From Trypanosoma brucei (Eukaryota), in the NCBI GenBank assembly GCA_000002445.1, contig AE017150.2, positions 1,088,001-1,152,000 of the forward strand: a stretch of 64,000 nucleotides of DNA, read 5' to 3'. Within the stretch, counting starts at the first letter, position 1, and each line of letters opens with the position of its first letter. This document shows, piece by piece, positions 14,290 to 64,000 of the stretch. The translations under genes and the position numbers were made by a program. The notes beneath the pieces are model-generated. The model ran no database searches. It worked only from the letters and a program-made list of their open reading frames with translations, and was not told the origin of the DNA.

Positions 14290-14318
<29 letters not shown>
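14290..14318. repeat. (TA)n microsatellite
   Basis: atatatatatatatatatatatatatat seen in the sequence. Confidence 0.9.
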
Positions 14319-14322
<4 letters not shown>

Positions 14323-14732
14323 GTGTGAACAAGGGGAAATGGAAGTGCTGTTAAACTTCTTTTTTTTCCCCTTTAACCGCTCCACACGTCATCGTGCACG
14401 CAAAAAACTTTTTGGCACAGGAAAAAATGACATCAGTAAGAGTACGCTGTTCGTCATTTTTCAGTTTATGTCGATTTTACTATTTTAATCACTCAATTTT
14501 TTATCTTTTGTTTATTTGGTGTAATGTGGCTGTTGTTTTATGTTTTGTTTACCGACTAAAGTTTATTTCAACTGTGCTGCTCTCGCTTCCACATTTTCAC
14601 ATTGAAAAGAAAAAAAAAAAAGAAACATCCCTCCCAAACTCGTTTCGTTCTTTTTTCCATTTCTGTTTTTTTTTTTTTACTTGGCTATTGTTTACCATTC
14701 TTATATTAGTAGCGTGCGTGCAGGTGTGTGTG

Positions 14733-17753: not shown

Positions 17754-19374
17754 AAAAAAAATAAAAATAATGTCATAATGATACCTTCAGTGCATTTGCA
17801 GTACGCCGCGTCCATAAAGAAGAAATGGTGTTGATGAATTTATTATTAATTTTTTAAAAGGAAGGAAGGGTGGAAGAAAAGACAAGAAGAAGAACAAGAG
17901 CCGCTTTTGTTCTTTTTCTTTTTGTTTCGTCTGTTTGTTTCTCCATGGTACATAAAAACTGTGCAGTATTGTTTTCCACCCATTAAAAAAAAATGAGTGT
18001 TAACGCATGAAGTTCCATACAACTGTTTAATTTCATCCAGAAAGAATTCGCCCCAACGTGCCCTACTTCTCAAAATAAAACCCGTTAATTCTTTCGCTAT
18101 CATCCGTTTTGTGTTTTTTTTTCCTTTTCTCATTACTGAATCAGCACTCCTAAAAAAAAGTGCGCCATTCCCCAAAATAGCACGGTAAAGGGCGAATGTT
18201 TGTGTAATTTCGAAAAAAAAAATAAAGGAAGATGTTATAAATGCATGCAGCCCAATACTTGAGAAATGTGTATTTTCTACACCTTAACATCAATTTTTTT
18301 TTTGTAAAGGACAAACTCACTGAGTGTTTAGTGACTGCGCTTCTTCAAACTTTTCTCCCTCAAGGCGTATTATGCAGTTGCAGAGAGTCATCTGTTTTCT
18401 GCTCCTTCTCCGCTTGCTAATGATTTGTGTTTATGCGTGTTGCTTCCTTTTTTATATTGTAAGTAATAGAAGACAAAAAAGGGGATATTACATATTACAT
18501 ATTTTATTTCGTATGTTAGCATGGTTGCATAATTTATGCTGCTGTAGAGGCGTGTGTTATGGATTGTAGTATTTGGAGAAGTTGTTTGACTAAAAGTTAC
18601 AAAAGCTAACCCTGTGTGTGATGGATTGTTAATTTATATAAACTTGTTTAACTTTACATTAGAATATAAATTTATTTATTGTCATTTAAATAGTTCCCCC
18701 ATATGAGAAAACTAAATGAACACGTATATGCACGTACATGTATGTGTATATTTGCATATTTGTTGTTTATGTATATTATATTTGAGTAATGTTAGTAAGG
18801 TGAGAAAACGGCTGTGTAATAAATCATTTTTATTTGGTATGCTTTGAGTGCGCGCGCGTGGGTTCTTTATTTCTATTATTAGAAAAGGAAACTGCAATAA
18901 TTGTTTCATTATTAAAAGTTCTTCATGACTCTTGTTTTTAAGTTTAGCATTTTGCTATTACTCAAATCATGTGAATTAAGGGAGGACTCATATCAGTATC
19001 ATATGATGATATTTGAAACAATTTAGAGACGCCTGATATTACTCAATACTCTAACTCTTTTTTTTCCTTTCATATCCATTGCATTTATATTGTGATATGA
19101 TAAGTTGATTTGTGTTAGCATTCAAATGCAGCATTGTTATTATTAATATTAACTTCCTTAAGGGAAATTAATTCGAAAGGAATGTTATTGTAAAAGGATT
19201 CAAATTGCAAGTAGTTATTCAGATAATGTTAATAATTTATACACAATTTTATATTTATTGTAGTTGTAGTAGTGTGCGTATTTCAACAAAGGTACCACTA
19301 ATTTTGCAGTTACTAAAAAGTTATAATGACACAATTCTATTTCTTGATAATGTGAGTCCCTGAATTTGTTGTTC

Positions 19375-19445
19375 TCTTTATATTTTTCACTTTGCTTTTC
19401 TTTTCTTTCATTTCATATATGTTTTTCTTTTTGTTATATAGACAA
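19375..19445 (+). promoter_or_regulatory. Polypyrimidine tract plus AG upstream of NT copy 1; the same element sits upstream of every NT copy
   Basis: ttctctttatatttttcactttgcttttcttttctttcatttcatatatgtttttctttttgttatatagacaaac occurs ~40 nt before each NT ATG. Confidence 0.4.
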
Positions 19446-19480
19446 ACTTATTATATCACTATTTCAAGTAATTCAAAAAG

Positions 19481-20869
19481 ATGGCAATGCTTGGTTTCGA
19501 GTCGACAGCTGAATTTTTCGTCTATCTCACCTTTATCTTTTTTGGGATGTCGGTGATGAATGTGACGAATGCCATTTACTCCAATTATGATTATTTCTCG
19601 GAATATTACAAGTTTGCGCAGCGTAATGCAGATGCGATATCCTCCAATCCATCATTCTGGAAGCACATGTTCACGTATTATAATGTTGTTGTGTTTACGA
19701 TGCAAGTGCTTTTGGAGGCTTTTATGCTCACACCATTGGGCCGACGCATTCCTATTAGTTGGCGTCTCATCTTTGGACTCACAATTCCTATGGTGGAGAT
19801 TATTGTGATTTTAGTGATCCCTGAAGTTGGAGGAAGCGAAGATGGTGCAATCGCAACTATGATGATAGTTGCTTTTGTTGGTGGTATTTCCAAAACACTT
19901 TGTGACTCCAGCAATGCTGCACTTGCGGGACCGTTTCCGACTAAATTCTATGGTGCCATCGTGTGGGGTCTTGCTGTCTCTGGCCTCATGACTTCATTTA
20001 TGTCTATTGTTATCAAAGCATCGATGGACAGCAGTTTTGAAAGCAAGAGAGTTCAGTCCCAAATATACTTTGGATTAGTCATGCTTCTTCAGGTGGTTGC
20101 ATGCGTGCTTCTTGTCCTTCTGAGGAAAAACCCATATGCCATTAAATATGCTGCAGAATTTAGGTATGCTGCGAGGAAGGATGGAGCAACAGGTGAAGAA
20201 GATGACACCGATTTTAAAGGAAGGGGCCCAGCAGATGAGAATAGATATCCCGATGAAAAGGATGACAAGAATGTGCTGAATGCTGATATTGATCCAGATA
20301 AGATGAAGGATACGGATCAGGTTGAAGGCACTACCAACGCTCAGCAGATGCTTGATGCGAGTGTTATGGTTGTGGTGAAACGCATTTGGCCCATGTTACT
20401 TTCATGCTTCTTTGTGTTCTTTGCGACACTTCTTGTATTCCCTGGTGTATTCTTTGCCGTTAAAGGCTCGATGGATCTTAATAACTTTTGGTACTTTCCC
20501 GTTGCCATTGCCATGTTCAACTTGGGTGATTTCTTGTCTCGTCTGGTGCTGCAGTTCAAGCAATTGCATGTGTCTCCGCGTATGGTTTTGATTGGTTCAT
20601 TTGCACGTGCACTTTTGATAATTCCTCTTTCTCTTTGTGTGTCCGGTGCAATTCCTGGTGTGGGGGTTCCTTTTACCGTTTCTCTCCTTTGGGGTCTCAC
20701 AAATGGTTACTTTGGTGGCCTTTCAATGATTTATGGACCACGTACGGGATCCCTCACCACAGCGGGTCAACGCTCTCTTGCTGCCATTTGCATTAATGTT
20801 GCCCTTCTTATGGGTCTTTTTGCTGGTGCTATGTTTGCCTTGGCTGTTAAGGAGGGACTTCCTAAATAA
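19481..20869 (+). CDS. Equilibrative nucleoside transporter (ENT family), TbNT2-family purine nucleoside transporter, copy 1; 462 aa
   Basis: Multi-pass membrane protein (MAMLGFESTAEFFVYLTFIFFGMSVMNVTNAIYS...) with a large charged central loop (KDG..EDD..PDEK..NADIDPDKMKD) and about 11 hydrophobic segments. It matches my recollection of the TbNT2-7 ENT proteins. Which TbNT number each copy carries cannot be decided from the sequence alone. Confidence 0.92.
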   Translation: MAMLGFESTAEFFVYLTFIFFGMSVMNVTNAIYSNYDYFSEYYKFAQRNADAISSNPSFWKHMFTYYNVVVFTMQVLLEAFMLTPLGRRIPISWRLIFGLTIPMVEIIVILVIPEVGGSEDGAIATMMIVAFVGGISKTLCDSSNAALAGPFPTKFYGAIVWGLAVSGLMTSFMSIVIKASMDSSFESKRVQSQIYFGLVMLLQVVACVLLVLLRKNPYAIKYAAEFRYAARKDGATGEEDDTDFKGRGPADENRYPDEKDDKNVLNADIDPDKMKDTDQVEGTTNAQQMLDASVMVVVKRIWPMLLSCFFVFFATLLVFPGVFFAVKGSMDLNNFWYFPVAIAMFNLGDFLSRLVLQFKQLHVSPRMVLIGSFARALLIIPLSLCVSGAIPGVGVPFTVSLLWGLTNGYFGGLSMIYGPRTGSLTTAGQRSLAAICINVALLMGLFAGAMFALAVKEGLPK

Positions 20870-20956
20870 ATTTCTCAAAACTTGTAAATACTTTAAGTAA
20901 TGACATATCATTAGTTTTTAATTTATTAATGAAAAAGAAGATAAATGATACTCGAT

Positions 20957-20978
20957 GCTGGTATCAGCTAGGAGTGGT
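20957..20978 (+). promoter_or_regulatory. Conserved 3'-flank hairpin motif GCUGGUAUCAGCUAGGAGUGGU, 88 nt after the NT copy 1 stop
   Basis: The motif is conserved downstream of all five NT genes while the flanking 3' sequence has diverged. GCUG/CAGC can form a 4-bp stem with a GUAU loop. Confidence 0.35.
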
Positions 20979-23589
20979 GTGAATGATGCAATAAAAAGAA
21001 GGGTAAGGATAGTAAAGAGATGAGCGAGAAATTGAAATATGAGGAATAAGAATAAATTCTAGTTAGAAAAGAATTATATGATATTTGAGAGTAATGAAGC
21101 ATATGCGTGCACACGTTATGTTGTTTTAAATGTGATAAATGGTATAAAAGAAGAAAGTACGTCTTTCCCTTTTCGTTTCTCTAAACTTGTGACTGAGTAT
21201 AAATAAACATATCTGCAATCATTTTAAAAGAGAGAGAAGTGGACGGAGGACCGCAGGTGCGCGTTCATATAATTGTCTTTTTCTTTTTTCCCGTTTTCAT
21301 TATGTTGTGATTGACTCCCTACAAATATCATAATTTCCTCCAATGTTTTGTGTAGCTTTCGTAATTTTTAACAGGAGAAATGATGGTGCAGATCCATTCT
21401 TTGGTGTATACTCAATTTTTGTCTTCTGTTGGATCAATTTCTTTTTGTTGAAACAAAAAAGCAAAAAGGAGGAAATAAAATATACGACTGTAGAAACATA
21501 AACGAACTATCAAAAAAAAAACACATATACATATTTATAATATGTGTTCTTTCTGCACAAAAAAAAAAAGAAAAAAATTGTATTAGTTACAATAATAAAA
21601 AATAGTGAAGCCAGCAGGAGGTGATAATTACAATTTGAACTCATCCCCTCTTGCCTATTTCACTATTCCCTTTGTTTCTTGAGAAAATAACTAAAACAGT
21701 AAAACAAGAGAGAGGATAGTAATAAATTGAATGAAATCAACAATACATTATTTTAAGAGGAAATTTGATTTTACTTTTTCTTTACTTTTCACTGTTTCTG
21801 TTTTTTGATTACTTTTACTTCCTTTCATTTCTTACTTTTTATTCCCATGACTGTGCTATGGTGTTACGGATATGTGTGTGTAAGTGAGGAATGTTGTGTG
21901 GATTTGCTTCTATTATTGTTTACTTGCCTTTGGTTGTATATCACACGCCTGCTTATGTTTTCCCATATGTGTACGCCTGCAGCAAACAGTGTGGGAATTT
22001 ACTCCGTGACTTTTTCTCATAAATGTCGGGAGGCAAATAATTAAATTAATTTTTTGTTTAATGTATCTGTATATGTTTGTCTGTTTATGTGTATGTGTTT
22101 GTGTGTACGTATTTGACATGTTCAGCAATATGTTTAGATTATCCAATAATAACTTCTCTTCCTTTCTATCTCTTATACAGTTATGTTGTTTACTTGTCAC
22201 TGTTTTACTTTCAGGAAAGTGTATAAATTAAGCTGAAGCAACGTTATGTTTATTTGTGTATTAGGCGCATGAATTCATTTTCTAGCAGTTAATGTACGTA
22301 TGCATACACGCATGTGTTTAACTTTATAATGTCTTATACTAAAAATGTATTCAAATATTGCCATGTGAATACCGTGTGAGGCTTATTGTATTTTTGTGTC
22401 GTGAAATAGTCAAGTAGTTGCTGTGTAACTTTTGTGTTTTTTCTTAAATAGATGACGTGTGTTTCCTTAGTTTAAAATATTTAATAAATGATTTGACAGC
22501 TGCTTGCATGTGAGAGTTTCATTCCTCTTCTTTGCTTAAAAATGTGCAGAGACTGGAATCCTTCATATAAATGATGTGAAATGCATAACTTATAAATTGC
22601 ATTTCCACTTTCACATATTGTAATATTATTGAGTATCAAAAGGGAAATGATGAATTACGTAATAGGAAGTTATTCACAACATGTTAATAGAGCAATTTAA
22701 CTTCGCAGCTATCACAGAACAGGCTTTTTATTGTAATGCTTATTTGTGGAATAGCTCATGCTTTATGAATTCTTGAGGATGGAGCGTTGTAATATTTTTA
22801 AAAGTAAACATAAGTAAACAAATAAATAAACAGTTTATCATTTTTGTATTTGCCTTCATAATCACTATAAGCTAAGCTATTAGTCTATTAACAATAATTA
22901 ATATGGCTACTAGTAAGGCAAAAGACGAGAAATAAGAAATTAATTTATAGGAATGATTTGATAGTTTGACGAATGTGTAATTATCATGTCTCTGATACTA
23001 GTGACGGATTATGATAGAGAGAATATGATTTGTGAGGTAGTTTTGATTCTCTGAAGTGATACAGCGGCGCATGGGAACTCGTCGTAAGAAAAAAAGAAAT
23101 AAATAATGTGCGGTATGTAATTTTTAAACCTCACATTGATGAGGTTGTGAGGCATAAAATAACTCTTGCCATTTTCCCAACGTGGCCAACAGTCGAAGAA
23201 CTGGTGCAACACTGCAGTAATGATACAGTGATGTTAAATTGAAAGCGAAAAATAAATATGAATGGCGTAAAAAGGGGGAAGGAAGTAGTGATGGTGGCGT
23301 AATCGATTTGGATTGTTTTTCGTGACAAATTCTCTACATTCAATGATTCTAGAGGAAACAAGTACGTACCATAGCAGTGGTTACTGTGTTTCCATAAGGA
23401 GTAAGTTATATTTACTGGAAAATGTGGTATTAAGAAATGTTATATGTGAGTAGTAATATACCTCAACACAGAGATGTACGCTCATGTAATCACTACACAA
23501 AAACCTTCCGAATGTTTTGAACGCACTGAGCGGATTGATGCGTCTCTCCAACCTTGAGTTGAAATGCACAACCCTTGAGTGTTGAGTTG

Positions 23590-26100
23590 GGATACATATT
23601 TTTAGATGTCACTAGAGCTTGATGTGTGGAATGAAACTCTAGAGCTCATGCATATGGCTAATGCTTATCATCGTCGTAACTTCCATGTTGGTACGATGAT
23701 GTGCAGTTTGCTGTTAGTGATAGCCTTCAGTGGATTGTATGGTAGGTGGTGTTTCTCTGTTTGTTTTCTGTCACAGATGGCAATGGAAGCGTCGACTATC
23801 TTTTGTATTACTCAGAAGGGAAAATTCTCTTTTTAAGTAATGGTAATGTTGAATCGTTGATAAAATCAACGGAATTATCCATAAGCTAGTTTTAATTGGA
23901 GGAAAGGAGAATAGGAGAACTGCCCACTTTGATGTGTTGCCAACAAACGAAAACAAGTGGTATGTATATTTTAGAACCCAGTATTTTTCTTTCTTATCCG
24001 ATGTACTTCCCTAATGTTTGGATCTGAGAAATACCTAATGATGATTAATACGGTTAGAGTTAGGGCATTCTTTTGTGATGCTGAATATCGCATCTATTGA
24101 TAACAGCAATCGATACGCCATACTCAAACATAAATGAATTCTCACACATTAACGCTGCTTCTGGTATCGCCAACCGTTATGTTCAATAGCTCGTTACGTG
24201 GGAGCATGAGTGGATGTAATGATGGATGCCGCTTCATCAAAGGCAGCTGCGTGATACTTATCTCAGAATATGTCAATGGTGTCGTATTATAGCCAAGTTT
24301 AAGTCTAATAATTAATCATAGTGATGTGTGTGGAAAAAGTGAGATTGTACCATTGCAGTGAGTGAACCGCTTTGCTTGGGACGTATTGCATTGTGCTGTG
24401 TGATTAAGCGCCGAGTTTGTTCACATCATACGTATGATATTTAGTTACTGTCAACCCACCGGATTGGTGTGGGAGGAGTGTAAGGCATCGTGCGAGCATG
24501 GGACATATGTTTCATCGCAGTGTCACGGAGGTTTTAAGGTATGGTGGAATATGGGAGGTGGATTAGCTATAGATCTCTTTGTGCCTCCATCCCTTCGTGC
24601 TATGCTTTTTCTTTTCCCCTGAAACTGATACAGTCTGGGGAGGCAGTGTGCTGAAGCTTCGCTAAGGTTTTGAAAGCAGGACTCACGACCCATCCCCCAC
24701 TGTGTAATGTATGATGACCAGATTTGTTCTGAGGGAGCATCAAACCAATCGTGTACGATGGAAGTGTAGAATAGGAAGTAAAGGAAAGTGTATTATTATG
24801 TGCAGATGCGTATGAGGCACTGCTCACAACACCTAAAGAAAGCAAAGTCACTCCTGACGGTTTTGATCATTTTATCAGTGTATCACAATCTAATCATTTC
24901 TGCTGTAGAAGGTTCGTTGCATAGTTGTGTGTATTCTGCTTTCAGAGTTGACATTCTGTCACTTACCACTGTGGAGAGTGATCACGATAATATCGTCGGC
25001 TTTCCGGTATGGAAGGAAGTATCACTTTACTCTTCTGCTCGTATAAGCGTGCTTTGTTCATCCGTGGAGCGGTGTTGTTATTGAAAAGGGGATGCTGAGT
25101 AGAGTGGTGACTCAACACTTTTTCTTGTACTGAAGACATACTAAGAGGTTCTGTCAGCAGGACAGACTTGCGGTGGCCAGGTGGTTTCGCGACCTCAGGG
25201 ACAACTTCCATATTGCACAAGGGGAACTTCTTCGTTTTGAGGTGACAGGGCGCATGCTAGTGTTGGGATATCTGTACATTGGAATGGCAAGGTCTTCCAG
25301 GGAAGGAAGGGAGGTGTATAAACCAGTGAAGGGCTGCACAGGTACTGTGTCAGGTATGAAAGTGATAGAGGTCTCTAAGGAAGTGTCAGATGTGATTATA
25401 CTCGGCAAGAGGTTGCTGCTCAAGGTTTTGATTATATACTTTCCGAAACAATCAAATGTTGCGAAAATTACGTTGAAAGAAAGTTTAGGGGGAGCAATGG
25501 GATAAGGGAAACCCTCACTGGATTGTTTTGTCGGGTATACAGCATGATAAGTGGAAGGTTTGGTGGAGAAGCACGCAGGTACACCACACCCAATTGGTGG
25601 GAGAGTAGTAATGGCCGGGAGCATTTACCGTGAGTGACAACTCCAACAATGGATGCTAAGTAGTTAATGTTGAAATGTTTTAAAACGTTAGAGAAAGGAA
25701 TGACTAAATGGTTGTAGGTACGTAAATTGTGGGAAGCACTGAGGGAAAATGATGTAATGATGCGACGGACCAAGGGACTCGAATACCCAATATATTACAA
25801 GAAACGCTACTATTGAGTTGGGTGCAGAAACAAGTGAGAGACAAGCTGTTTGGGTAGTTGAAGTATCGACCACTGGGAAGGGTGAAGCGTGGGCAGGAAG
25901 GATCATCAAATCTTATCCTCCTTTCAGTTAATATGACTGAAGAAGCGAGAAAAGAAAAAGAATGGTTGTGAAAAGAGAAATTAGCGAAAAAGAATTAGTA
26001 GAAGCAATTGTGGCGTCAAAAAAGACGTTAAGGGTAGCGTTAGTACAAATAGAAAAGCAGCCAACTCTAAAAAATTGGTTTCCGACGTAAAGGAAGCGGG
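23590..26100. other. Conserved ~2.5 kb block of relatively GC-rich spacer, open on both strands (overlapping 85-156 codon ORFs); function unknown; copy 1
   Basis: Recurs at about 34008-36520, 44104-46610 and 54160-57130. I recognise no protein motif in any frame. It could be a decayed gene, a retroelement relic or an ncRNA locus. Confidence 0.3.
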
Positions 26101-26389
26101 GACAGGTGAATAAAACTATTTAATTTGTACCAGTTTACATGTATGAAAATGACCTCATATGTGTGTGATTTGCTCCTGTTAACTCGGTGAACATCGGAAC
26201 TGACACGTTGCTCTGTGCTATTGTAGCAATGCACTCCAGTGTGATATCACTGGAACTATGAAACCTTATATTTCTTATGGCGTTGTATCAGTGCTTCCAC
26301 TATGGTATCATTATGTTAACGTGAGCAGTATATTGTCACGTGGTGGACAACATGTCAACTAGTTTGTTTAAACTGTTGCTCTCTTGACA

Positions 26390-26475
26390 GCTTGTAATTC
26401 GTATCATTCTGTTGTGTTCTTTTCCTTTCTTGTTTATTCTTCCAAAATACTGTTATCGGAAGGACCCCCTTTATC
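26390..26475 (+). promoter_or_regulatory. Polypyrimidine tract upstream of 2OG-oxygenase copy A; conserved upstream of all copies
   Basis: ttctgttgtgttcttttcctttcttgtttattcttccaaaatactgttatcggaaggaccccctttatccttatttttgcatctgc sits upstream of the ATG at 26587. Confidence 0.35.
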
Positions 26476-26586
26476 CTTATTTTTGCATCTGCACTGGCTG
26501 TTTAAGCGGACCCTTTCCAATTGTTAGGCACAAAACGGTACATATATATATATTTCAAGAAAGCAACAGTGTGTAATTTAGAAACC

Positions 26587-31335: not shown

Positions 31336-31409
31336 GTTTTGAAAATTTATGATACCTTCAAATAATGTGAAAAATTTTTTGTAACTAGTGAAATAAAAAA
31401 AAGCTCCGT

Positions 31410-31430
31410 GCTGGTATCAGCCAGGAGTGG
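31410..31430 (+). promoter_or_regulatory. Conserved 3'-flank hairpin motif (gctggtatcagccaggagtgg), 75 nt after the NT copy 2 stop
   Basis: Same motif as at 20957. Confidence 0.35.
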
Positions 31431-41741: not shown

Positions 41742-41812
41742 TAAGTATTTTCTAAACTCTAAGTAATGTCATAACATTTTTTTTAATTAATGAGAAAGAA
41801 CATTAAATATAT

Positions 41813-41833
41813 GCTGGTATTAGCTACGAATGG
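41813..41833 (+). promoter_or_regulatory. Conserved 3'-flank motif, variant (gctggtattagctacgaatgg), 72 nt after the NT copy 3 stop
   Basis: Variant of the motif at 20957. The stem remains possible with a G-U pair. Confidence 0.3.
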
Positions 41834-51843: not shown

Positions 51844-51903
51844 ATTCTCAATAATTGTAAAAATTACAATTAATACAATTTTTTTTTTTAAAAAAGGCTC
51901 CAT

Positions 51904-51924
51904 GCTGGTATCAGCTAGGAGTGG
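51904..51924 (+). promoter_or_regulatory. Conserved 3'-flank hairpin motif (gctggtatcagctaggagtgg), 61 nt after the NT copy 4 stop
   Basis: Same motif as at 20957. Confidence 0.35.
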
Positions 51925-54900: not shown

Positions 54901-57622
54901 GATTGTACCATTGCAGTGGGTGAACCGTTTCGTTTGGGACGTATTGCATTCTGCTGTGTGATTAAGCGCCGAGTTTTTCTGCAAATATACGTATGATATT
55001 TAGTTGCTGTCGACCCGCCGAATCGGTGTGTGGTTAGTGTAAAGCATTATGCGAACATAGGTTAGTAATGCACAGTGTTTAGAAGGCGAATGTGCCATTC
55101 AAGTAACCTTGATTTATACGTAACGTTTCTTACCTTTTTGTGGTGTTTCACTGTGATCATTCCGAGCGATGTAGTTTATGCTGTTAATGTCACTCAAAGC
55201 AATCTGATATTTTTTATGATTGTCACTGCAGCATCTCTTTCTACAAGTTTCTTTACTTTTTTTAAAAAAAGGCATCATTATAAAGCTTGAAAAAGATGTC
55301 ATAGCTCTTTAACCCTTTACACCCTCTCAAAATATGCCATGAAAAATGTAAAACTTGCCAGTTGTTTTCACGGTTGCGGCTCTGTAAGAAAGTGAATATT
55401 TCACACTTTGGAGAGCTAATTTTGCTACGAAGTGGTTAAGGCCACCTATTCGCAGTGGCAGCCCTTGAGGTGAAAACCACATATACTAACGTATCGACAG
55501 CAGTAATGAGGACATGTGTCAGCATGGGACGTATGTTTCACTACAGTGTCACAGAGGTTTTAAAGCACAGTGGGCACGGGAGGTGAATTAGTTGTAGATC
55601 TCTTTGTGCCTTAACCTTTCGTGCTATTCTTTTTTTTCTCTCTGGAACTGATACAGTCTGGGGAGGCAGTGTGCTCAAGCTTTGCTAAGTTTTTGGAAGC
55701 AGGACTCACGACCCATCCCCCACTGTGTAATGTATGATGACCAGATTTGTTCTGAGGGAGCGTCAAACCAATCGTGTACGATGGGCGTGTAGAACAGGAA
55801 GTAAAGGAAGGTGTGTTATTATATGCAAATGCAGATGAAATACTGCTCACAACACCTAAAGAAAGCAAAGTCACTCCTGACGGTTTTGATCATTTTATCA
55901 GTGTATCACAATCTAATCACCTTTGCTGCTGTAGAAGGCTCATTGCATAGTTGTGTGTATTTTGCTTTCAGAGCTTGAGACAACCAGTCACTTACCGACC
56001 ACTGTGGAGAGTGATCACGATGATGTCGTCGGCTTTCCTGTATGGAAGGAAGTATCATTTTGCTCTTCTGCTCGCGTAATTGTGTTCCTTTGTGTATCCG
56101 TGGAGTAGCGTTGTTATTGAAAAGAGGGATGATGAGTAGAATGGCGACTCAACACTTTTTCTTGTACTGAAGAAATACCAAGAGTTTTTTTCAGCAGGAC
56201 AGACCTGCGGTGGCCATGTGGTTTAGATACCTCAGGGACAACTTCCATATTGCACAAGGAGAACTTCTGCGTCTTGAGGTGGCATGGCGCATGCTAGTGT
56301 TGGGATATCTGTACATTGGAATAGCAAGGTCTTCCAGGGAAGGAAGAGGGATACATAAGCCAGTGAAGGGCTGCACAGGTGCTGTGTCAGGTGTGAAGGT
56401 GATAGATGGCTCTAAGGAAGTGTCAGATGTGATTATACTCGGCAAGAGGTTGCTGCTCAAGGTTTTGATTATATACTTCCCGAGACGATCAAATGTCGCG
56501 TAACTTACGTTGGAAGAAAGTTTAGGGGGAGCAATGGGATGAGGGAAGTCCCCACTGGATTGTTTGGTCGGATATACAACATGATAAGTGGAAGGTTTGT
56601 TGAAGAAGAACGCAGGTACACCACATCCAATAGGTGAGAAGGCAGTAATGGCCGGGTGCATTTGCTGTGAGTGAAAACTTTAACAATGGATGCTAAGTAG
56701 TTAATGTTGAAATGTTTTAAAACGTTAGAGAAAGGAATGACTAAATGGTTGTAGGTACGTAAATCGTGGGACGCACTAAGGGAAAATGATGTAGTGGTGC
56801 GATGGAGCAAGGGACTCGAATACCCAATATATTACAAGAAACGCTACTGTTGAGTTGGGTGCAGAAACAAGTGAGAGACAAGCTGTTTGGGTAGCTGAAG
56901 TATCGACCACTGGGAAAGGTGAAGCGTTGGCAGGAAGGATCATCAAATCTCATCCTCATTTCATTTAGTATGACTGAGGAAGCGAGGGAAGGAAAGGAAT
57001 GGTTGTGAAGGGAGCAAGTAGTGAAAGCAAAATAGTAGAAGCAATTGTGGCGTCAAATAAGATGTGAAGGGTAGCGGTAGTACAAATAGAAAAGCAAAAC
57101 CAAGTTAAAAAAATTGGTTGCCGACGTCAAGGAAGCGGGGACAGGTGAATAAAATTATGTAATTCGTACCAGTTTAAATGTATTAAAATGAACTCTGATG
57201 TGTGTGATTTGCTACTGTTAACTCGGTGAACATCGGAACTGATACGTTGCTCTGTGCTATTGTAGCAGTGCACTCCAGTGTGGTATCACTGGAACTATAA
57301 AACCTTATATTTCTTATGGCGTTGTATCAGTGCTTCCACTATGGCATCATTGTGTTAACGTGAGCAGTATATTGTCACGTAGTGGACAACATGTCAACTA
57401 GTTTGTTTAAACTGTTGCTCTCTTGACAGTTTGTAGTTCGTATCACTCTGTTGTTTGCTTTTCTTGTCTTGTTTATTCCCCTGAGATATTACTGGTAAGT
57501 CCTCCTTTATCCTAATTTTTGTATTTACGCCGGCTGTTGAAGCGGAACCCTTCCAATTATTAGGCACAAAACGGTACATATATATATATTACAAGAAAGC
57601 AACAGTGTGTAATTTAGAAACC

Positions 57623-58582
57623 ATGACACGCGCCTCGCTTCCTGTTATTGATGTTTCGCCCCTATTTGGTGGCGAATCCGCAGAAAAGGAAAGGGTCTCC
57701 AAGCAGATTGATAATGCATGCAGGACATGGGGCTTCTTCTACATTGTGGGACATCCGATTCAGCAGGAGCAGATTGACAAAGTACTTAAGTTAGCTGATA
57801 CTTTTTTCTCTCTTCCTATGGAGGAGAAGCTCAAATTGGACGTTCGCAAGGGTAGACTTTATCGTGGTTACACTGCCCCTGGAGTAGAGGAAGCTGATGT
57901 AGGGAAGGTTTACACGTACGAGACCTTTACGACGGGATACCATCTTCCTAAGCACCATCCAGACGTCATGGCAGGCAAACCGCTCCGAGGACCGAATATC
58001 CACCCCACTCAAGTGAGGGGATGGATGGAGGGTATGGAAGGTCATTACCGCGATATGTGGGCACTTGCGCTTGTCCTCCTGCGCGCTATGGCGCAAGCTA
58101 TCGGTTTGCAGGAAGATTTCTTCGACTCCAAGTTTATGGATCCCCTTTGTGAATTGAATATAAAGCACTACGTTCCCTTATCTCAAACGAAAGAAGAAAC
58201 TACTTTGCTCATTGAGCACAGCGATTTCGGTGTTATGACGTTACTCTATCAAGACGCTTCAGGTGGCTTGCAAGTACGTGATAGTTCCGGAGAGCTGATG
58301 GATGTGCCACCTGTTGAAGGAAGTTTTGTTGTCAACCTTGGAGACATGATGGAGATGTGGACCAATGGCCAATACCGTTCCACAAAGCATCGTGTGGTAG
58401 CCACAGACAAGGAACGGTACTCCATGCCTTTCTTTTGCAATCCCAATCCGAATGTCATCGTCAAGTGCCTCGACAACTGTCACTCGGAAGAGAATCCACC
58501 AAGGTACCCTCCAGTGCGGGCTGTTGATTGGGTTTTGAAGCGGTTCGCGGAGGCATATGGGAAAGATTACTCAAAAATGTAG
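57623..58582 (+). CDS. 2OG-Fe(II) dioxygenase, IPNS-like family, copy D (type II); 319 aa
   Basis: Identical to copy C except residue 285 (V/I) and residue 305 (V versus I). Confidence 0.9.
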   Translation: MTRASLPVIDVSPLFGGESAEKERVSKQIDNACRTWGFFYIVGHPIQQEQIDKVLKLADTFFSLPMEEKLKLDVRKGRLYRGYTAPGVEEADVGKVYTYETFTTGYHLPKHHPDVMAGKPLRGPNIHPTQVRGWMEGMEGHYRDMWALALVLLRAMAQAIGLQEDFFDSKFMDPLCELNIKHYVPLSQTKEETTLLIEHSDFGVMTLLYQDASGGLQVRDSSGELMDVPPVEGSFVVNLGDMMEMWTNGQYRSTKHRVVATDKERYSMPFFCNPNPNVIVKCLDNCHSEENPPRYPPVRAVDWVLKRFAEAYGKDYSKM

Positions 58583-60973
58583 GAGTGGTTCCTAGTTTGC
58601 ATTTCTTTTAGCATTTGCTTTATCAAGAATGGTATCAGGCCCTGCAATTAGTAGTTGTTTTTCAGACGTGGCTGACTTACATATGCGTAGTATCTGTCGT
58701 AATGCAAAAAGTTCTGTGATTTAAAATGTGGGTGAAGACAGTACGGTAACGTATCTAGTCAGAATGAATATATTTCACTCACTCTTTATTTTCAATGTAG
58801 GGAATTGTTAAAGGGGTAATAATATTTCTTTCACCTTTCCTCTTCCTTTTTTTTAATTGCCATCTTTGTAAGGGGTGCTGTAAGTCCATCTTTTCTCATA
58901 CTTTGATATCTTCATCTATTTCCTTATTACATTGAATAATGCATTAACATCTTCATTGCGATGCCAACTGAAGTATTCTGACAAGCAATAGGTGTATGCT
59001 ATTGTATGTTAGTTTATGCTGCAACAGAGTTCTCCTTGGAAATGCTTGTCTTTTTTTTTCACTTTGAGGGGGTTCTACAATTGTCTTTCCCCATTCTATT
59101 CTAAGGGTTAATTACGCATTAGAAATGCTACCAGTCACTTCAGAGGTATTCCTTCTTACACAAGTATTATTTTGATGCGATCTCATGCAAGGAGAATGGA
59201 GGTAAATGGAGAATGAAACAACTCACATTCTCCACCCACCCAATGGAGAGCATACGTTTTACCATGGAAGTCGCGCTTGAAGTATCTCCCCAAGTAGAGC
59301 AAACTAATGAGGAATTAGCACCTAAGGGCTGCGTTGTTAAATATTTTGAAAGAGTGGGGGTTCGTACGTGAAGGATAAGGGATTTTGAGGGTGCTTACTC
59401 TTATTGTGTTTTTAATTTTTTTTTTGAAAAGGGGGGTGGTGGCCAATTTTATTATGTCACCCGACGAATGGAATTGCTTTGTACCACGCTGTTTGTGTTT
59501 GTTACATATATTGGTAAGGAATAATGTTTTTTATGTGAATTTCAATGCGTTTGATGTTTTTTGTCACCGCACTTATGTTGAGTCTGTGCAATTTCTTTTC
59601 CCTCCATGCTGAACATACCATTCTCTATTATTTTCTTATCTTTCATTGTTTCAGCTTTTCAGGGGAAACACATGCATACCCACGAGATGGAATACACTAA
59701 ACGACACGTAACACTGTGGGAGAATGTTATAAATGCATGCAGTCCAATACTTGAGAAATGTGTATTTTCTACACCTTAACATCAATTTTTTTTTTTGTAA
59801 AGGACAAACTCACTGAGTGTTTAGTGACTGCGCTTCTTCAAACTTTTCTCCCTCAAGGCGTATTATGCAGTTGCAGAGAGTCATCTGTTTTCTGCTCCTT
59901 CTCCGCTTGCTAATGATTTGTGTTTATGCGTGTTGCTTCCTTTTTTATATTGTAAGTAATAGAAGACAAAAAAGGGGATATTACATATTACATATTTTAT
60001 TTTGTATGTTAGCATGGTTGCATAATTTATTCTGCTGTAGAGGCGTGTGTTATGGATTGTAGTATTTGGAAAAGTTGTTCGACTAAAAGTTATAAAAGCT
60101 AACCCTGTGTGTGATGGATTTTTAATTTATATAAACTTGTTTAACTTTATATTAGAATATAAATTTATTTATTGTCATTTAAATAGTTCACCCATATGAG
60201 AAAACTAAATGAACACATATACGCACGTATATGTATATTTATATTTGCATATTTGTTGTTTATGTATATTATATTTGAGTAATGTTGGTAAGGTAAGAAA
60301 ACGGCTGTGTAATAAATCATTTTTATTTGGTATGCTTTGAGTGCGCGCGCGTGGGTTCTTTATTTCTATTATTAGAAAAGGAAACTGCAATAATTGTTTC
60401 ATTATTAAAAGTTCTTCATGACTCTTGTTTTTAAGTTTAGCATTTTGCTATTACTCAAATCATGTGAATTAAGGGAGGACTCATATCAGTATCATATGAT
60501 GATATTTGAAACAATTTAGAGACGCCTGATATTACTCAATACTCTAACTCTTTTTTTTCCTTTCATATCCATTGCATTTATATTGTGATATGATAAGTTG
60601 ATTTGTGTTAGCATTCAAATGCAGCATTGTTATTATTAATATTAACTTCCTTAAAGGAAATTAATTCGAAAGGAATGTTATTGTAAAAGGATTCAAATTG
60701 CAAGTAGTTATTCAGATAATGTTAATAATTTATACACAATTTTATATTTATTGTAGTTGTAGTAGTGTGCGTATTTAAACAAAGGTACCACTAATTTTGT
60801 AATTACTCAATAGTTATAATGACACAATTCTATTTCTTGATAATTTGAGTCCCTGAATTTGTTTTTCCCTTCATATTTTTCACTTTGCTTTTCTTTTCTT
60901 TCATTTCATATATGTTTTTCTTTTTGTTATATAGACAAGCTTATTATATCACTATTTCAAGTAATTCAAAAAG

Positions 60974-62374
60974 ATGGCAATGCTTGGTTTCGAGTCGACA
61001 GCTGAATTTTTTGTCTATCTCACCTTCATCTTTTTTGGGATGTCGGTGATGAATGTGACGAATGCTATTTACTCTATTCCTGACTATTTTTCAGTGTATT
61101 ATCAATTTGTTAAAAATGATGAAAAAGCGAAACCTGTCAATGCATCGTTCTGGGAGCACATGTTCACGTATTATAATGTTGTTGTGTTTACGATGCAAGT
61201 GGTTTTGGAGGCTTTTATGCTAACACCATTGGGCCGACGCATTCCTATTAGTTGGCGTCTCATCTTTGGACTCACAATTCCTATGGGTGAGATCATTGCA
61301 ATTTTAGTGATCCCTGAAGTTGGAGGAAGTGAAGCTGGTGCGATGGCAACTGTTATGATAGTTGCTTTTGTTGGTGGTATTTCCAAAACACTTTGTGACT
61401 CCAGCAATGCTGCACTTGCGGGACCGTTTCCGACTAAATTCTATGGTGCCATCGTGTGGGGTCTTGCAGTCTCTGGCCTAATCACTTCATTTATGTCTGT
61501 TGTCATCAAAGCAGCGATGGAATACAGCTTCAAAAGCAGACGAGTTCAGTCCCAAATATACTTTGGATTAGTCATGCTTCTTCAGGTGGTTGCATGCGTG
61601 CTTCTTGTCCTTCTGAGGAAAAACCCATATGCCATTAAATATGCTGCAGAATTTAGGTATGCTGCGAGGAAGGATGGAAAGACAGATGATGGCGAAGATG
61701 AAAACGATGCAAAGGGAACAGGGCCAGCAGACGAAGATGGGTATCCTGATGAAAAAGAGAATAAGAATGTATTGAATGCTGATATTGATCCAGATAAGAT
61801 GAAGGATACGGATCAGGTTGAAGGCACTACCAACGCTCAGCAAATGCTTGATGCGAGTGTTATGGTTGTGGTGAAACGTATTTGGCCCATGTTACTTTCA
61901 TGCTTCTTTGTGTTCTTTGCGACACTTCTCATCTTCCCTGGTGTATTCTTTGCTGTTAAAGATAAAACAACGGTAAAAAACTTTTGGTATTATACAATTA
62001 TTGTTGCCATGTTCAACTTGGGTGATTTCTTGTCTCGTCTGGTGCTGCAGTTCAAGCGGTTGCATGTGTCTCCGCGCATGGTTATGATTGGTTCATTTGC
62101 ACGTGCGTTGCTGATAATTCCTCTTGCCCTTTGCGTTCCTGGTACCATTCCTGGTGTATGGCTTCCCTACACCGTTTCTCTCCTTTGGGGTCTCACAAAT
62201 GGTTACTTTGGTGGCCTTTCAATGATTTATGGACCACGTACGGGATCCCTCACCACAGCGGGTCAACGCTCTCTTGCTGCTATTTGCATTAATGTGGCTC
62301 TTTTACTCGGTCTCTTTGCTGGTGCTATGTTTGCATTGGCTGTTAAGGAGGGACTTCCGAAGGAAAAAAAGTAG
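60974..62374 (+). CDS. ENT-family nucleoside transporter, TbNT2-family, copy 5; 466 aa
   Basis: Its TM1-TM2 loop is of the copy-4 type (SIPDYFSVYYQFVKNDEKAKPVNASFWEHM). Its C-terminus is of the copy-2 type, with an extra KEKK tail. Confidence 0.92.
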   Translation: MAMLGFESTAEFFVYLTFIFFGMSVMNVTNAIYSIPDYFSVYYQFVKNDEKAKPVNASFWEHMFTYYNVVVFTMQVVLEAFMLTPLGRRIPISWRLIFGLTIPMGEIIAILVIPEVGGSEAGAMATVMIVAFVGGISKTLCDSSNAALAGPFPTKFYGAIVWGLAVSGLITSFMSVVIKAAMEYSFKSRRVQSQIYFGLVMLLQVVACVLLVLLRKNPYAIKYAAEFRYAARKDGKTDDGEDENDAKGTGPADEDGYPDEKENKNVLNADIDPDKMKDTDQVEGTTNAQQMLDASVMVVVKRIWPMLLSCFFVFFATLLIFPGVFFAVKDKTTVKNFWYYTIIVAMFNLGDFLSRLVLQFKRLHVSPRMVMIGSFARALLIIPLALCVPGTIPGVWLPYTVSLLWGLTNGYFGGLSMIYGPRTGSLTTAGQRSLAAICINVALLLGLFAGAMFALAVKEGLPKEKK

Positions 62375-62442
62375 GAGTTTTTAAAACATTAAATAATGTC
62401 TAAACTTTTTTTAAATTAATAAAATAAAAAAATAAACTCCAT

Positions 62443-62463
62443 GCTGGTATCAGCTAGGAGTGG
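62443..62463 (+). promoter_or_regulatory. Conserved 3'-flank hairpin motif (gctggtatcagctaggagtgg), 69 nt after the NT copy 5 stop
   Basis: Same motif as at 20957. Confidence 0.35.
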
Positions 62464-64000
62464 TTTTAACGATGAAAATAATAAAAAAAATAAAATAGGA
62501 AAAGATAAGACAAAAAGGGGTTAATTCTAGGAAAGTGAATAATATGACTCATGGCAGCAAGCAAGCATATACGTGCATATGTTATGTAGTTTTGAGGTAA
62601 AAGTGACGCAAAGAAAAGTGTTAGTCGGTTACAAACGCATCGCGCAAAGTACGATACGGCGGAGTTCTGCAAGCTTGTACCATGACAGTATTTCACTATT
62701 TTGTTAACTAACATGGATTTCACCTCTAAGATATGGTTTTAAGGGTAAGGGTTGTAAATTGTGAAATTGTATTGACGATCTCACTCATTAGTGCAAACCT
62801 TTGATACACTTTACTGTTTACTTTTGATGCAACACAAAATTTGTGTGAAAGAAAGAGCTATACTTCAGCTTGTAGCGTTTTCAGTGCGCTTATTTTCATC
62901 ACATGTGTGCAAACGAGTAAAAAAATGATGTGAACCCGAAAAGTCTTATTACTTTTCCTTTTATTCCCATGACCGTGCTATGGTGTTACGGATATGTGTG
63001 TAAGTGAGGAGTGTTGTGTGGATTTGCTTCTATTATTGTTTACTTGCCTTTGGTTGTATACCACACACCTGCTTATGTTTTCCCATATGTGTACGCCTGT
63101 AGATAACAGTGTGGGAGTTTACTCCGTGACGTTTTCTCACAAATGTCTAGAGGCAAATGATTAAAGTAATTTTTTTGTTTAATGTATATCTGTATATGTT
63201 TGTCTGTTTATGTGTATGTGTGTTTGTGTGTACGTATTTGACATGTTCAGCAATATGTTTAGATTATCCAATTATATCTTTTCTTTTCTATTTTCTTATA
63301 TTGTTTACTTGTCACTGTTTTACTTTCAGGAAGGTATATAAATTAAGCTGAAGCAACGTTATGTTCATTTGTGTATTAGACACATGAGTTTATTTCCAAG
63401 CAGATGATATATGCGTGAACGCGTGTGTTTAACTTTATAATGTCTTATACTAAAGATGTATCCAAATATTGCCATGCTAATACCTTGTGAGGCTTATTGT
63501 ACTTTTGTGTTGTGAAATAGTCAAGTAGTTGCTGTGTAACTTTTGTGTTATTTTTTAGATAATGTGTGTTTTCTTAGTCTAATATCTTTAATAAATGATT
63601 TGACAGCTGCTTGCATGTGAGGGTTTCATTCCTCTTCTTTGCTTAAAAATGTGCAGAGACTGGAATCCTTTATATAAATGAAGTGAAATGCATAACTTAT
63701 AAATTGCATTTCCACTTTCACATATTGTAATATTATTGAGTATCAAAAGGGAAATGATGAATCATGTAATAGGAAGTCATTCACAACATGGTAATAGAGC
63801 AATTCATCTTCGAAGCTATAACGGAACAAGCTTTTTATTGTAATGCTTATTTGTGGAATAGCTCATGCTTTATGAATGCTTGAGGATGGAGCGTTGTAAT
63901 ATTTTTAAAAGTAATATAAGTAAACTAGCAAACAAATTATCGTTTTTGTTTCTTCCTTCATAATCACTATAAGCTAAGCTATTAGTCTATTAGCAATAAT

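What the first reader, a model, noticed from the sequence alone, without database searches (positions are those of the whole stretch)
18233..64000. Head-to-tail tandem array (at least 4.4 units of ~10.4 kb) alternating ENT nucleoside-transporter genes with 2OG-Fe(II) oxygenase genes
The sequence shows that, from 18233 to the window end, a unit of NT gene, ~5.7 kb spacer, oxygenase gene and ~2.4 kb spacer repeats with periods of 10462, 10410, 10096 and 10524 bp. This is consistent with the known T. brucei chromosome-2 TbNT2-7 cluster, in which six transporter genes were described in tandem. Five transporter genes fall inside the window, and the array continues past position 64000. The strict alternation of a membrane transporter with a soluble dioxygenase, amplified as one cassette, is the dominant feature of the window.
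Basis: partly seen in the sequence, partly recalled or inferred. Interest (0 to 1): 0.6.

Follow-up and report, generated by a model that had tools for sequence, protein, structure and literature searches.

The report
Known T. brucei transporter–oxygenase gene array
This is the already published and annotated tandem array on Trypanosoma brucei chromosome 2 in which purine nucleoside transporter genes (TbNT2-7) alternate with uncharacterised iron/2-oxoglutarate oxygenase genes, so the finding is correct but not new.

Summary
A head-to-tail repeat starts at 18232 and runs to the window end. Its unit lengths are 10463, 10409, 10097 and 10523 bp, at 89-95% identity. It carries five ENT transporter genes and four 2OG-Fe(II) oxygenase genes in strict alternation.

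All nine proteins are exact matches to consecutive T. brucei brucei TREU927 chromosome 2 entries, XP_951746 to XP_951754. XP_951755 (oxygenase) and XP_951756 (transporter) lie beyond the window, so the full array is 6 + 5 genes.

Three papers already describe this alternation. They also report its bloodstream-form up-regulation, its copy-number variation between subspecies and its recombination. Verdict: already known.

My own additions:
- The spacers are 95-100% identical, yet the coding regions are old paralogues (dS 0.24-0.56, dN/dS about 0.25).
- The oxygenases come in two types, and unit 2 carries a clean recombinant of them.
- No transporter gene lies near the oxygenase gene in the stretches examined in T. 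cruzi, T. vivax or T. congolense.
- The closest bacterial homologues sit next to a purine-type binding-protein gene in 79 of 80 Pseudomonadaceae loci.
- The array copies have altered residues at positions that line the substrate pocket in a fungal relative.

This gives a testable but unproven lead: the oxygenase may act on purine-related substrates.

The parts
18232..28694 (+). Repeat unit 1 (10463 bp): transporter, long spacer, oxygenase type A, short spacer
   Evidence: Self-BLAST, unit alignment, sharp left boundary
28695..39103 (+). Repeat unit 2 (10409 bp)
39104..49200 (+). Repeat unit 3 (10097 bp). It is shorter because of deletions of 45-85 bp in the segment just 3' of the transporter gene.
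49201..59723 (+). Repeat unit 4 (10523 bp). It carries a unit-specific insertion.
59724..64000 (+). Repeat unit 5, cut off by the window end. Its oxygenase (XP_951755) and the final transporter (XP_951756) lie beyond the window.
19481..20869 (+). ENT transporter gene, 462 aa, identical to XP_951746 (adenosine transporter 2; TbNT2 locus)
   Evidence: Pfam PF01733; exact look-up
29941..31335 (+). ENT transporter gene, 464 aa, identical to XP_951748
40353..41741 (+). ENT transporter gene, 462 aa, identical to XP_951750. It is the most divergent paralogue (78-82.5% aa identity to the others).
50452..51843 (+). ENT transporter gene, 463 aa, identical to XP_951752
60974..62374 (+). ENT transporter gene, 466 aa, identical to XP_951754
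26587..27546 (+). 2OG-Fe(II) oxygenase gene, type A, 319 aa, identical to XP_951747. C-terminus is -PKM.
37003..37962 (+). 2OG-Fe(II) oxygenase gene, identical to XP_951749. It is an A-to-B recombinant with the switch between CDS nt 691 and 715 (window about 37693-37717). C-terminus is -SKM.
47099..48058 (+). 2OG-Fe(II) oxygenase gene, type B, identical to XP_951751. C-terminus is -SKM.
57623..58582 (+). 2OG-Fe(II) oxygenase gene, type B, identical to XP_951753. C-terminus is -SKM.
20870..26586 (+). Long spacer of unit 1 (5717 bp). No ORF longer than 156 aa in any frame. No Pfam hit in a six-frame translation of 23400-26586. No Rfam family. From about 21800 onward it is 95-100% identical among units 1-3.
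20900..21780 (+). Hypervariable segment just 3' of the transporter stop codon. It is 48-73% identical between types. It falls into three types, with units 1 and 2 alike over its 3' part only (66-73% over the first about 560 bp, near-identical from about 21484), unit 3 on its own, and units 4 and 5 alike. Probably paralogue-specific 3' UTR (inferred).
55040..55515 (+). Insertion of about 467 bp found only in unit 4, with no other copy in the window

Best explanation
The region is the published TbNT2-TbNT7 / iron-ascorbate oxidoreductase array at the right end of T. brucei brucei TREU927 chromosome 2.

Origin and layout. A segment of about 10.4 kb, holding one P1-type ENT purine nucleoside transporter gene and one Fe(II)/2-oxoglutarate oxygenase gene, was duplicated head to tail. 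The likely mechanism is unequal crossing-over (inferred). The result is 5 full units plus one extra transporter gene. All ORFs of at least 200 aa lie on the + strand. This fits a single polycistronic transcription unit in which expression depends on copy number and mRNA-specific untranslated regions (inferred from established trypanosome biology).

Ongoing evolution. The array keeps being reshaped by gene conversion or unequal exchange. This homogenises the spacers. Purifying selection meanwhile keeps old, distinct coding paralogues of both genes.

Transporters. They import purine nucleosides into a purine auxotroph (published).

Oxygenases. They keep an intact catalytic core, and four of five end in a PTS1-like -SKM. 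They are therefore probably active glycosomal enzymes. Their substrate is unknown.
For: Shown here:
- Periodic diagonals and unit boundaries.
- Pfam assignments above the curated cutoffs.
- Exact identity of all nine proteins to consecutive TREU927 chromosome 2 entries.
- All ORFs of at least 200 aa in the window lie on the + strand.
- Spacers are 95-100% identical among units 1-3, while transporter coding regions are 77-96% identical per 300-bp window.
- Nei-Gojobori dS is 0.24-0.52 for the transporters and 0.56 for oxygenase type A versus B. dN/dS is 0.18-0.30 in every pair.
- The unit-2 oxygenase switches from type A to type B at CDS nt 691-715: 184 informative sites, with one lone B-type site at nt 483.
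- H199, D201, H256, R265 and S267 are invariant in all five oxygenases.
- The C-termini are -SKM in four oxygenases and -PKM in one.

From the literature:
- The alternation, and 3.3-13.2-fold (oxygenases) and 8.4-20.7-fold (transporters) higher mRNA in bloodstream forms (PMC2771046).
- Five repeats plus one extra transporter gene, and PTS1 in four of five oxygenases (PMC4288722).
- 6/5 gene copies in T. b. brucei against 3/2 in T. b. gambiense, with PHI recombination tests at p<0.001 (PMC2854126).
- Kinetic constants for NT2 and NT5-7 (PMC9960827, Table 10).
Against: Nothing contradicts the identification. Several parts of the mechanism are not shown.
- No transcript data were examined here, so the role of the divergent segment 3' of each transporter gene as a UTR is inferred.
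- The oxygenase substrate and location are untested. The unit-1 copy ends in -PKM, a poor PTS1.
- Reference assemblies can misjudge the copy number of tandem arrays. Here, however, every unit has its own coding sequence and indels, which argues against a collapsed or inflated assembly.
Confidence: 0.97

Rival explanations
1. Functional cassette. The oxygenase acts on a purine-related base or nucleoside brought in by the neighbouring transporter. Selection therefore amplified the transporter and the enzyme together as one working module.
For: - The closest non-kinetoplastid relatives of the family are Pseudomonadaceae proteins. They are 46-51% identical to the array copies and 57-64% identical to T. 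cruzi, T. theileri and Leishmania orthologues.
- In 79 of 80 species-representative bacterial loci the oxygenase gene lies directly downstream of a Bmp-family binding-protein gene on the same strand. The 80th locus has only 298 bp of upstream flank.
- An adenosine/adenine deaminase gene lies downstream on the same strand in 54 of 80 loci, and within about 360 bp in most of them. ABC permease genes are present in 56-59 of 80 and an 8-oxoguanine deaminase gene in 47 of 80.
- NCBIfam equivalog scores are 707 bits (cutoff 532) for the 8-oxoguanine deaminase and 555 bits (cutoff 419) for the adenosine deaminase.
- That binding protein matches AtzT at E 1.5e-116. AtzT co-purified with guanine (PMC6834077).
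- A 41%-GC metagenome contig shows the same binding-protein/oxygenase pair.
- Both gene sets of the T. brucei array are up-regulated together in bloodstream forms, and the oxygenases are under purifying selection.
Against: - The T. brucei linkage traces back to a single juxtaposition that was then copied, so it counts as one event.
- No transporter gene lies within the sequence examined around the oxygenase gene in T. cruzi (TTL - oxygenase - RIO1), T. vivax (47 kb away on the opposite strand) or T. congolense.
- At the six positions that line the thymine pocket of fungal T7H, the array copies differ from the Pseudomonas/conserved-trypanosomatid signature (H, D, R, Y, F, E). They read Y, N or T, N, F, F, N or V. 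Substrate inference from bacteria may therefore not carry over.
- No biochemical data exist for either the trypanosome or the Pseudomonas enzyme in the searched library.
Confidence: 0.25
2. Hitch-hiker. Selection acted only on transporter dosage and diversity. The oxygenase gene merely lay inside the duplicated segment and has no functional tie to the transporters.
For: - The unit is a physical block, so any gene inside it is copied automatically.
- T. b. gambiense keeps only two oxygenase copies, and T. evansi has at least partly lost them.
- The orthologous gene in other trypanosomes lies in unrelated contexts.
Against: - All five oxygenase copies keep intact reading frames and catalytic residues.
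- dN/dS is 0.18-0.30.
- Two deep isoforms (77% aa identity) are each conserved at 99-100% in other T. brucei subspecies.
- Their mRNAs are stage-regulated.

This shows that the gene is maintained. It does not show that it is coupled to the transporter, so this rival and the functional-cassette rival cannot be separated by sequence alone.
Confidence: 0.6
3. Assembly artefact. The periodicity reflects misassembled or artificially repeated sequence rather than a real array.
For: Tandem repeats of 10 kb at more than 90% identity are hard to assemble, and the reference copy number may be imprecise.
Against: - Each unit has its own transporter coding sequence (78-90% aa identity between copies).
- Each unit has its own indels, including an insertion of about 467 bp found only in unit 4, and its own type of transporter 3' segment.
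- The array is reported independently in T. b. gambiense as transporter-oxygenase-transporter-oxygenase-transporter (accessions CBH09653, 09654, 09656 and 09657; Table 2 of PMC2854126).
Confidence: 0.01

Closest known systems
T. brucei chromosome 2 TbNT2-7 / iron-ascorbate oxidoreductase array (Tb927.2.6150 to Tb927.2.6320)
   Same: It is this locus. All nine encoded proteins are identical to the TREU927 entries, and the order and strand are the same. The alternation is described in PMC2771046, PMC4288722 and PMC2854126.
   Different: Nothing differs. The window simply ends before the last oxygenase gene and the last transporter gene.
Other T. brucei tandem gene arrays, such as the alpha/beta-tubulin array (listed in PMC1855330)
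   Same: Genes repeated head to tail within a polycistronic unit and shaped by unequal crossing-over and gene conversion.
   Different: The table in PMC1855330 lists the tubulin array as invariant (Ds and Dn of 0). Here the coding regions are old paralogues (dS 0.24-0.56) while the spacers are the homogenised part. That the tubulin array alternates two genes is from my own knowledge.
Pseudomonadaceae purine cluster: ABC importer with a Bmp/AtzT-like binding protein, 8-oxoguanine deaminase, 2OG oxygenase and adenosine/adenine deaminase (the PA0142-PA0148 region of P. aeruginosa, gene numbers from memory)
   Same: It holds the nearest non-kinetoplastid homologue of the oxygenase. Like the T. brucei array, it places this oxygenase subfamily next to purine uptake genes.
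   Different: - The transporter is an ABC system, not an ENT.
- The oxygenase gene is single copy, in an operon-like cluster.
- The pocket signature matches the conserved trypanosomatid copies (chromosomes 5 and 7), not the array copies.
- The bacterial enzyme is also uncharacterised in the searched library.
Fungal thymine-7-hydroxylase (N. crassa T7H, PDB 5C3P-5C3S)
   Same: Same Pfam architecture, the same HxD...H and RxS residues, and an aromatic pair at the positions of Tyr217 and Phe292. Several trypanosomatid orthologues are annotated 'putative thymine-7-hydroxylase', and Tb927.7.7500 is listed as TLP7.
   Different: It ranks only seventh among solved structures (E 2.2e-40, against 8.7e-59 for 9OVH). 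Asn87, Glu122 and the critical Arg190 are not conserved in the array copies. Asn294 is kept in all but the unit-1 copy (residue roles from PMC4787775).

Membership tests
T. brucei chromosome 2 NT2-7 / oxidoreductase tandem array | Proteins identical to the annotated TREU927 genes, in alternating order on one strand | tested here: met
   Exact look-up places the nine proteins at XP_951746 to XP_951754 on the 1,193,948-bp contig. All ORFs are on the + strand.
T. brucei chromosome 2 NT2-7 / oxidoreductase tandem array | Head-to-tail repeat of about 10 kb containing both genes | tested here: met
   Offsets of 10.1-10.5 kb and their multiples, at 89-95% identity.
Equilibrative nucleoside transporter family (ENT / SLC29, PF01733) | Significant match to the family profile over nearly its full length | tested here: met
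   PF01733 at 99.7-111.4 bits (cutoff 29.8), covering profile positions 2-306 of 309.
Equilibrative nucleoside transporter family (ENT / SLC29, PF01733) | Eleven membrane helices with a large hydrophilic loop between helices 6 and 7 | tested here: inconclusive
   A crude Kyte-Doolittle scan shows about six hydrophobic peaks before a hydrophilic stretch of about 95 residues (about 214-308) and four to five after it. This is consistent, but it is not a proper topology prediction.
Equilibrative nucleoside transporter family (ENT / SLC29, PF01733) | Nucleoside transport activity | not testable with these tools
   Published Km/Ki values for NT2, NT5, NT6 and NT7 are quoted in PMC9960827, Table 10.
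2OG-Fe(II) oxygenase superfamily, isopenicillin N synthase-like branch (PF14226 + PF03171) | Both domains above the curated cutoffs | tested here: met
   PF14226 at 112.7-116.5 bits (cutoff 27.3). PF03171 at 84.5-94.6 bits (cutoff 23).
2OG-Fe(II) oxygenase superfamily, isopenicillin N synthase-like branch (PF14226 + PF03171) | HxD...H iron-binding triad and the RxS pair that binds the 2OG C5-carboxylate | tested here: met
   H199, D201, H256, R265 and S267 are invariant in all five array copies. They align with His214, Asp216, His271, Arg286 and Ser288 of N. crassa T7H.
Thymine-7-hydroxylase (fungal T7H) | Conserved substrate-pocket residues Asn87, Glu122, Arg190, Tyr217, Phe292 and Asn294 (PMC4787775) | tested here: not met
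   The array copies read Y, N/T, N, F, F, N/V. Arg190, described as vital in T7H, is Asn. Only Phe292 is kept in every copy. Asn294 is kept in four of the five copies, and Tyr217 is replaced by Phe, which PMC4787775 says is tolerated in some T7Hs. This is based on alignment only; no structure was used.
Thymine-7-hydroxylase (fungal T7H) | T7H is the nearest characterised relative | tested here: not met
   T7H ranks seventh among solved structures (E 2.2e-40). 9OVH, 6JYV, SpoC and TropC score higher.
Glycosomal (PTS1-targeted) proteins | C-terminal tripeptide of the [SAC][KRH][LM] type (pattern from general knowledge) | tested here: met
   -SKM in the unit 2, 3, 4 and 5 oxygenases; the unit 1 copy ends in -PKM and does not fit. 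PMC4288722 likewise reports a PTS1 in four of five. Localisation itself is untested.

The most novel reading that the evidence does not exclude
The array oxygenases are glycosomal enzymes that modify a purine-related base or nucleoside taken up by the adjacent transporters. On this reading, T. brucei amplified a working 'uptake plus modification' module.

The gene family would descend from a bacterial-type enzyme that in Pseudomonadaceae sits inside a purine import and deamination cluster. The T. brucei-lineage paralogues (the chromosome 2 array and the chromosome 9 copy) would then have changed specificity, because their pocket residues changed.
Probability: 0.22. Interest if true: 0.55.

Novelty: already known. 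Interest (0 to 1): 0.18.

Why it matters
The finding adds nothing to the published genome annotation and literature.

The locus does matter biologically. T. brucei cannot make purines. The NT2-7 transporters also carry nucleoside-analogue drug candidates. The five co-amplified, bloodstream-induced oxygenases have had no assigned function since they were pointed out in 2009 (PMC2771046).

The comparative evidence gathered here narrows the substrate search to purine-related compounds. That evidence is the purine-cluster context of the nearest bacterial homologues and a pocket signature shared by Pseudomonas and the conserved trypanosomatid copies but altered in the array copies. It also suggests which paralogues to compare in enzyme assays.

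Tried and rejected
- Genomic context for the TREU927 proteins. Looking up NTa, P0002 and P0003 failed because none is on record. I could not fetch the sequence beyond position 64000 and relied on accession order instead.
- RNA genes and short repeats. Rfam at gathering thresholds found nothing in the whole window. Tandem Repeats Finder found nothing at score 80 or above in 17700-64000.
- A hidden gene or decayed mobile element in the long spacer. No frame is open for more than 156 aa. A six-frame Pfam scan of 23400-26586 found nothing. The AT-richer part, 20870-23399, was not scanned against Pfam.
- The unit-4 insertion as a retroposon such as RIME. It has no poly(A) end and no other copy in the window. 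I had no reference element sequence to compare with, so this is unsupported rather than excluded.
- Jackson 2007 (PMC1855330) as a source for this array. The paper does not mention it.
- T. vivax linkage. The transporter and oxygenase genes lie on the same 192-kb contig, but about 47 kb apart and on opposite strands.
- Thymine-7-hydroxylase identity. Rejected on pocket residues and on rank among solved structures.
- A published horizontal-transfer claim for this gene. The paper search returned nothing.
- Functional work on Tb927.2.6180/6210/6230/6270/6310 or on PA0147. None was found in the library.

Full report
**Observation**

A self-comparison of the window gives long + strand diagonals at offsets of 10463/10421, 10111 and 10512 bp and at their multiples. 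Alignments reach 9992 bp at 89-95% identity. The repeat begins at 18232 with a sharp left edge: the 478 bp between the upstream ABC-transporter gene and 18232 occur only once.

The units start at 18232, 28695, 39104, 49201 and 59724, so their lengths are 10463, 10409, 10097 and 10523 bp.

Each unit holds one ORF of 462-466 aa and one of 319 aa (counted from the first ATG), all on the + strand. Spacers measure 5357-5779 bp after the long ORF and 2390-2394 bp after the short one.

Pfam places the long ORFs in PF01733 (nucleoside transporter). It places the short ones in PF14226 plus PF03171 (2OG-Fe(II) oxygenase). All matches are well above the curated cutoffs.

**Identity**

All five transporter proteins and all four oxygenase proteins are exact, full-length matches to T. 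brucei brucei TREU927 proteins on a 1,193,948-bp contig. Their accessions alternate without a gap from XP_951746 to XP_951754. XP_951755 (oxygenase) and XP_951756 (transporter) are not in the window. The array therefore continues for one more oxygenase gene and one more transporter gene, giving six plus five.

The genes upstream are also all on the + strand. They comprise:
- a PI-PLC X-domain protein;
- a COPA/B-type coatomer subunit;
- a RanBP-type zinc-finger protein;
- two ORFs without a Pfam match;
- an ABC transporter.

**What is already published**

[quoted passage not shown] It also reports that both gene sets are more highly expressed in cultured bloodstream forms than in procyclic forms: 3.3-13.2-fold for the oxygenases and 8.4-20.7-fold for the transporters.
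[quoted passage not shown] - PMC2854126 lists the two gene sets as arrays 12bi and 12bii. It gives 6 and 5 copies in T. b. brucei against 3 and 2 in T. b. gambiense, with significant recombination tests.
- Kinetic constants for NT2, NT5, NT6 and NT7 are tabulated in PMC9960827.

The finding is therefore correct and already known.

**Anatomy beyond the literature**

An alignment of the five units shows an uneven pattern.
- Spacers. From about 21800 to the oxygenase start, the spacers are 95-100% identical among units 1-3. They are about 82-96% identical to unit 4.
- Transporter genes. Per 300-bp window, the coding regions are only 77-96% identical.
- Segment after the transporter stop codon. 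The roughly 0.9 kb that follows it is 48-73% identical between types. It falls into three types, with units 1 and 2 alike over its 3' part only (66-73% over the first about 560 bp, near-identical from about 21484), unit 3 on its own, and units 4 and 5 alike.

Synonymous divergence is 0.24-0.52 between transporter paralogues and 0.56 between the two oxygenase types. dN/dS is 0.18-0.30 throughout. The coding regions are thus old paralogues under purifying selection, embedded in spacers that have been homogenised recently. This is what gene conversion or unequal exchange held in check by selection on the genes would produce. That mechanism is inferred, but it agrees with the published recombination tests.

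The oxygenases come in two types.
- Type A is in unit 1. Type B is in units 3, 4 and 5. The two are 77% identical at the amino-acid level.
- The unit-2 gene follows type A at all informative sites up to CDS nt 691 except one (nt 483). It follows type B from nt 715 onward.
- Each type is 99-100% identical to proteins from other T. brucei subspecies.

Unit 4 carries an insertion of about 467 bp that has no other copy in the window.

The long spacer has no open frame above 156 aa. Its GC-richer half has no Pfam match in any frame. The window has no Rfam match.

**The oxygenase**

The iron-binding triad (H199, D201, H256) and the 2OG-binding pair (R265, S267) are invariant in all five copies. Four copies end in -SKM and one in -PKM.

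The best solved relatives are 9OVH (E 8.7e-59) and 6JYV (E 5.4e-53). Fungal thymine dioxygenase ranks seventh (E 2.2e-40).

Orthologues occur across trypanosomatids. T. brucei also has conserved copies on the 1.6-Mb and 2.2-Mb contigs (chromosomes 5 and 7) and a divergent one on the 3.06-Mb contig (chromosome 9). The chromosome 7 copy is listed as Tb927.7.7500, 'thymine-7-hydroxylase, putative (TLP7)'.

The array copies form the long branch of the family. They are 54-57% identical to T. cruzi, whereas T. vivax is 68% identical to T. cruzi.

**Is the cassette shared with other species?**

- In T. cruzi the single gene lies between a tubulin-tyrosine-ligase gene and a RIO1 kinase gene.
- In T. 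vivax the nearest transporter gene on the same contig is about 47 kb away, on the opposite strand.
- In T. congolense no transporter gene lies on the two oxygenase contigs.
- In both T. vivax and T. congolense an ISG65-75 family gene lies upstream of the oxygenase gene.

Among the genomes I could examine, the transporter-oxygenase cassette is confined to the T. brucei group.

**A lead on function**

The nearest non-kinetoplastid relatives are Pseudomonadaceae proteins. They are 46-51% identical to the array copies and 57-64% identical to the T. cruzi, T. theileri and Leishmania orthologues.

I examined 80 species-representative bacterial loci.
- In 79 of them the oxygenase gene lies directly downstream of a Bmp-family substrate-binding protein gene on the same strand. 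The remaining locus has too little flank to tell.
- An adenosine/adenine deaminase gene lies downstream on the same strand in 54 loci, within about 360 bp in most.
- ABC permease genes are present in 56-59 loci.
- An 8-oxoguanine deaminase gene is present in 47 loci.

NCBIfam equivalog models confirm both deaminases. The binding protein matches AtzT at E 1.5e-116, and AtzT co-purified with guanine (PMC6834077). A 41%-GC metagenome contig shows the same pairing.

So this oxygenase subfamily sits beside purine uptake genes in two unrelated settings, with two unrelated transporter families.

**Limits of that lead**

- The bacterial loci come from one family, so their shared synteny is largely inherited.
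- The T. brucei linkage is a single event that was then copied.
- The pocket differs. At the six positions that line the thymine pocket of N. crassa T7H (roles from PMC4787775), the Pseudomonas proteins and the conserved trypanosomatid copies share one signature (H, D, R, Y, F, E). The only exception is the T. brucei chromosome 5 copy, which has N at the second position. The array copies read Y, N/T, N, F, F, N/V, and the chromosome 9 copy reads Y, N, T, Y, F, N.

The array copies have therefore probably changed specificity. None of these proteins fits T7H itself. This comparison rests on a sequence alignment, not on a structure.

No functional study of the trypanosome or the Pseudomonas enzyme was found in the library.

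**Verdict**

Interest is low for the finding itself. The most novel reading still open is that the cassette couples purine uptake to an oxygenase acting on a purine-related substrate. I give it about 0.2 probability, and it can be tested directly with enzyme assays and knockouts.

Noticed in passing
window 21800-26500, 32260-36900 and 42370-47000, compared with the transporter genes at 19481-20869 and their copies: The non-coding spacers are more alike between units (95-100% among units 1-3) than the coding regions are (77-96% per 300-bp window; dS 0.24-0.52). Homogenisation appears to stop at the gene borders.
   Followed up: partly
window 37693-37717: The unit-2 oxygenase is a clean type A to type B recombinant. 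All but one of the informative sites before CDS nt 691 are type A, and all after nt 715 are type B.
   Followed up: yes
window 55040-55515: An insertion of about 467 bp occurs only in unit 4. It has no other copy in the window and no obvious poly(A) end. Its origin is unknown.
   Followed up: partly
window 20900-21780 and the equivalent segments of units 2-5: The roughly 0.9 kb after each transporter stop codon is the most divergent part of the unit (48-73% between types). It falls into three types, with units 1 and 2 alike over its 3' part only (66-73% over the first about 560 bp, near-identical from about 21484), unit 3 on its own, and units 4 and 5 alike. It could give paralogue-specific mRNA regulation.
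   Followed up: no
L006-L092 and L095 (bacterial loci): In Pseudomonadaceae the homologous oxygenase gene is flanked by a purine-type ABC binding-protein gene (79 of 80 loci), an adenosine/adenine deaminase gene (54 of 80) and often an 8-oxoguanine deaminase gene (47 of 80). The bacterial enzyme appears uncharacterised in the searched papers.
   Followed up: yes
proteins P0055, P0057, P0067 versus P0072, P0123, P0166: Trypanosomatid orthologues are 59-64% identical to Pseudomonas proteins, nearly as close as T. cruzi is to Leishmania (68%). This suggests horizontal transfer between a gammaproteobacterium and a kinetoplastid ancestor. No outgroup-rooted tree was made.
   Followed up: partly
L001 3680-4783 (T. 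vivax) and L093 1093-1881 (T. congolense): In both species an ISG65-75 family surface-glycoprotein gene lies upstream of an oxygenase paralogue. This hints at a different conserved neighbourhood in the non-brucei African trypanosomes.
   Followed up: no
window 161-17753: The upstream part of the same + strand gene run encodes a PI-PLC X-domain protein (probably GPI-PLC, from memory), a COPA/B-type coatomer subunit, a RanBP zinc-finger protein, two ORFs with no Pfam match (9552-11165, 12463-13926) and an ABC transporter. GC content falls to 0.28 at 2001-4000.
   Followed up: no
alignment positions equivalent to N. crassa T7H Asn87, Glu122, Arg190, Tyr217 and Asn294: The array and chromosome 9 oxygenases have replaced most of the pocket residues that are otherwise nearly invariant from Pseudomonas to Leishmania. 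This includes the Arg190 equivalent, now Asn or Thr. Types A and B also differ from each other at two of these positions.
   Followed up: yes
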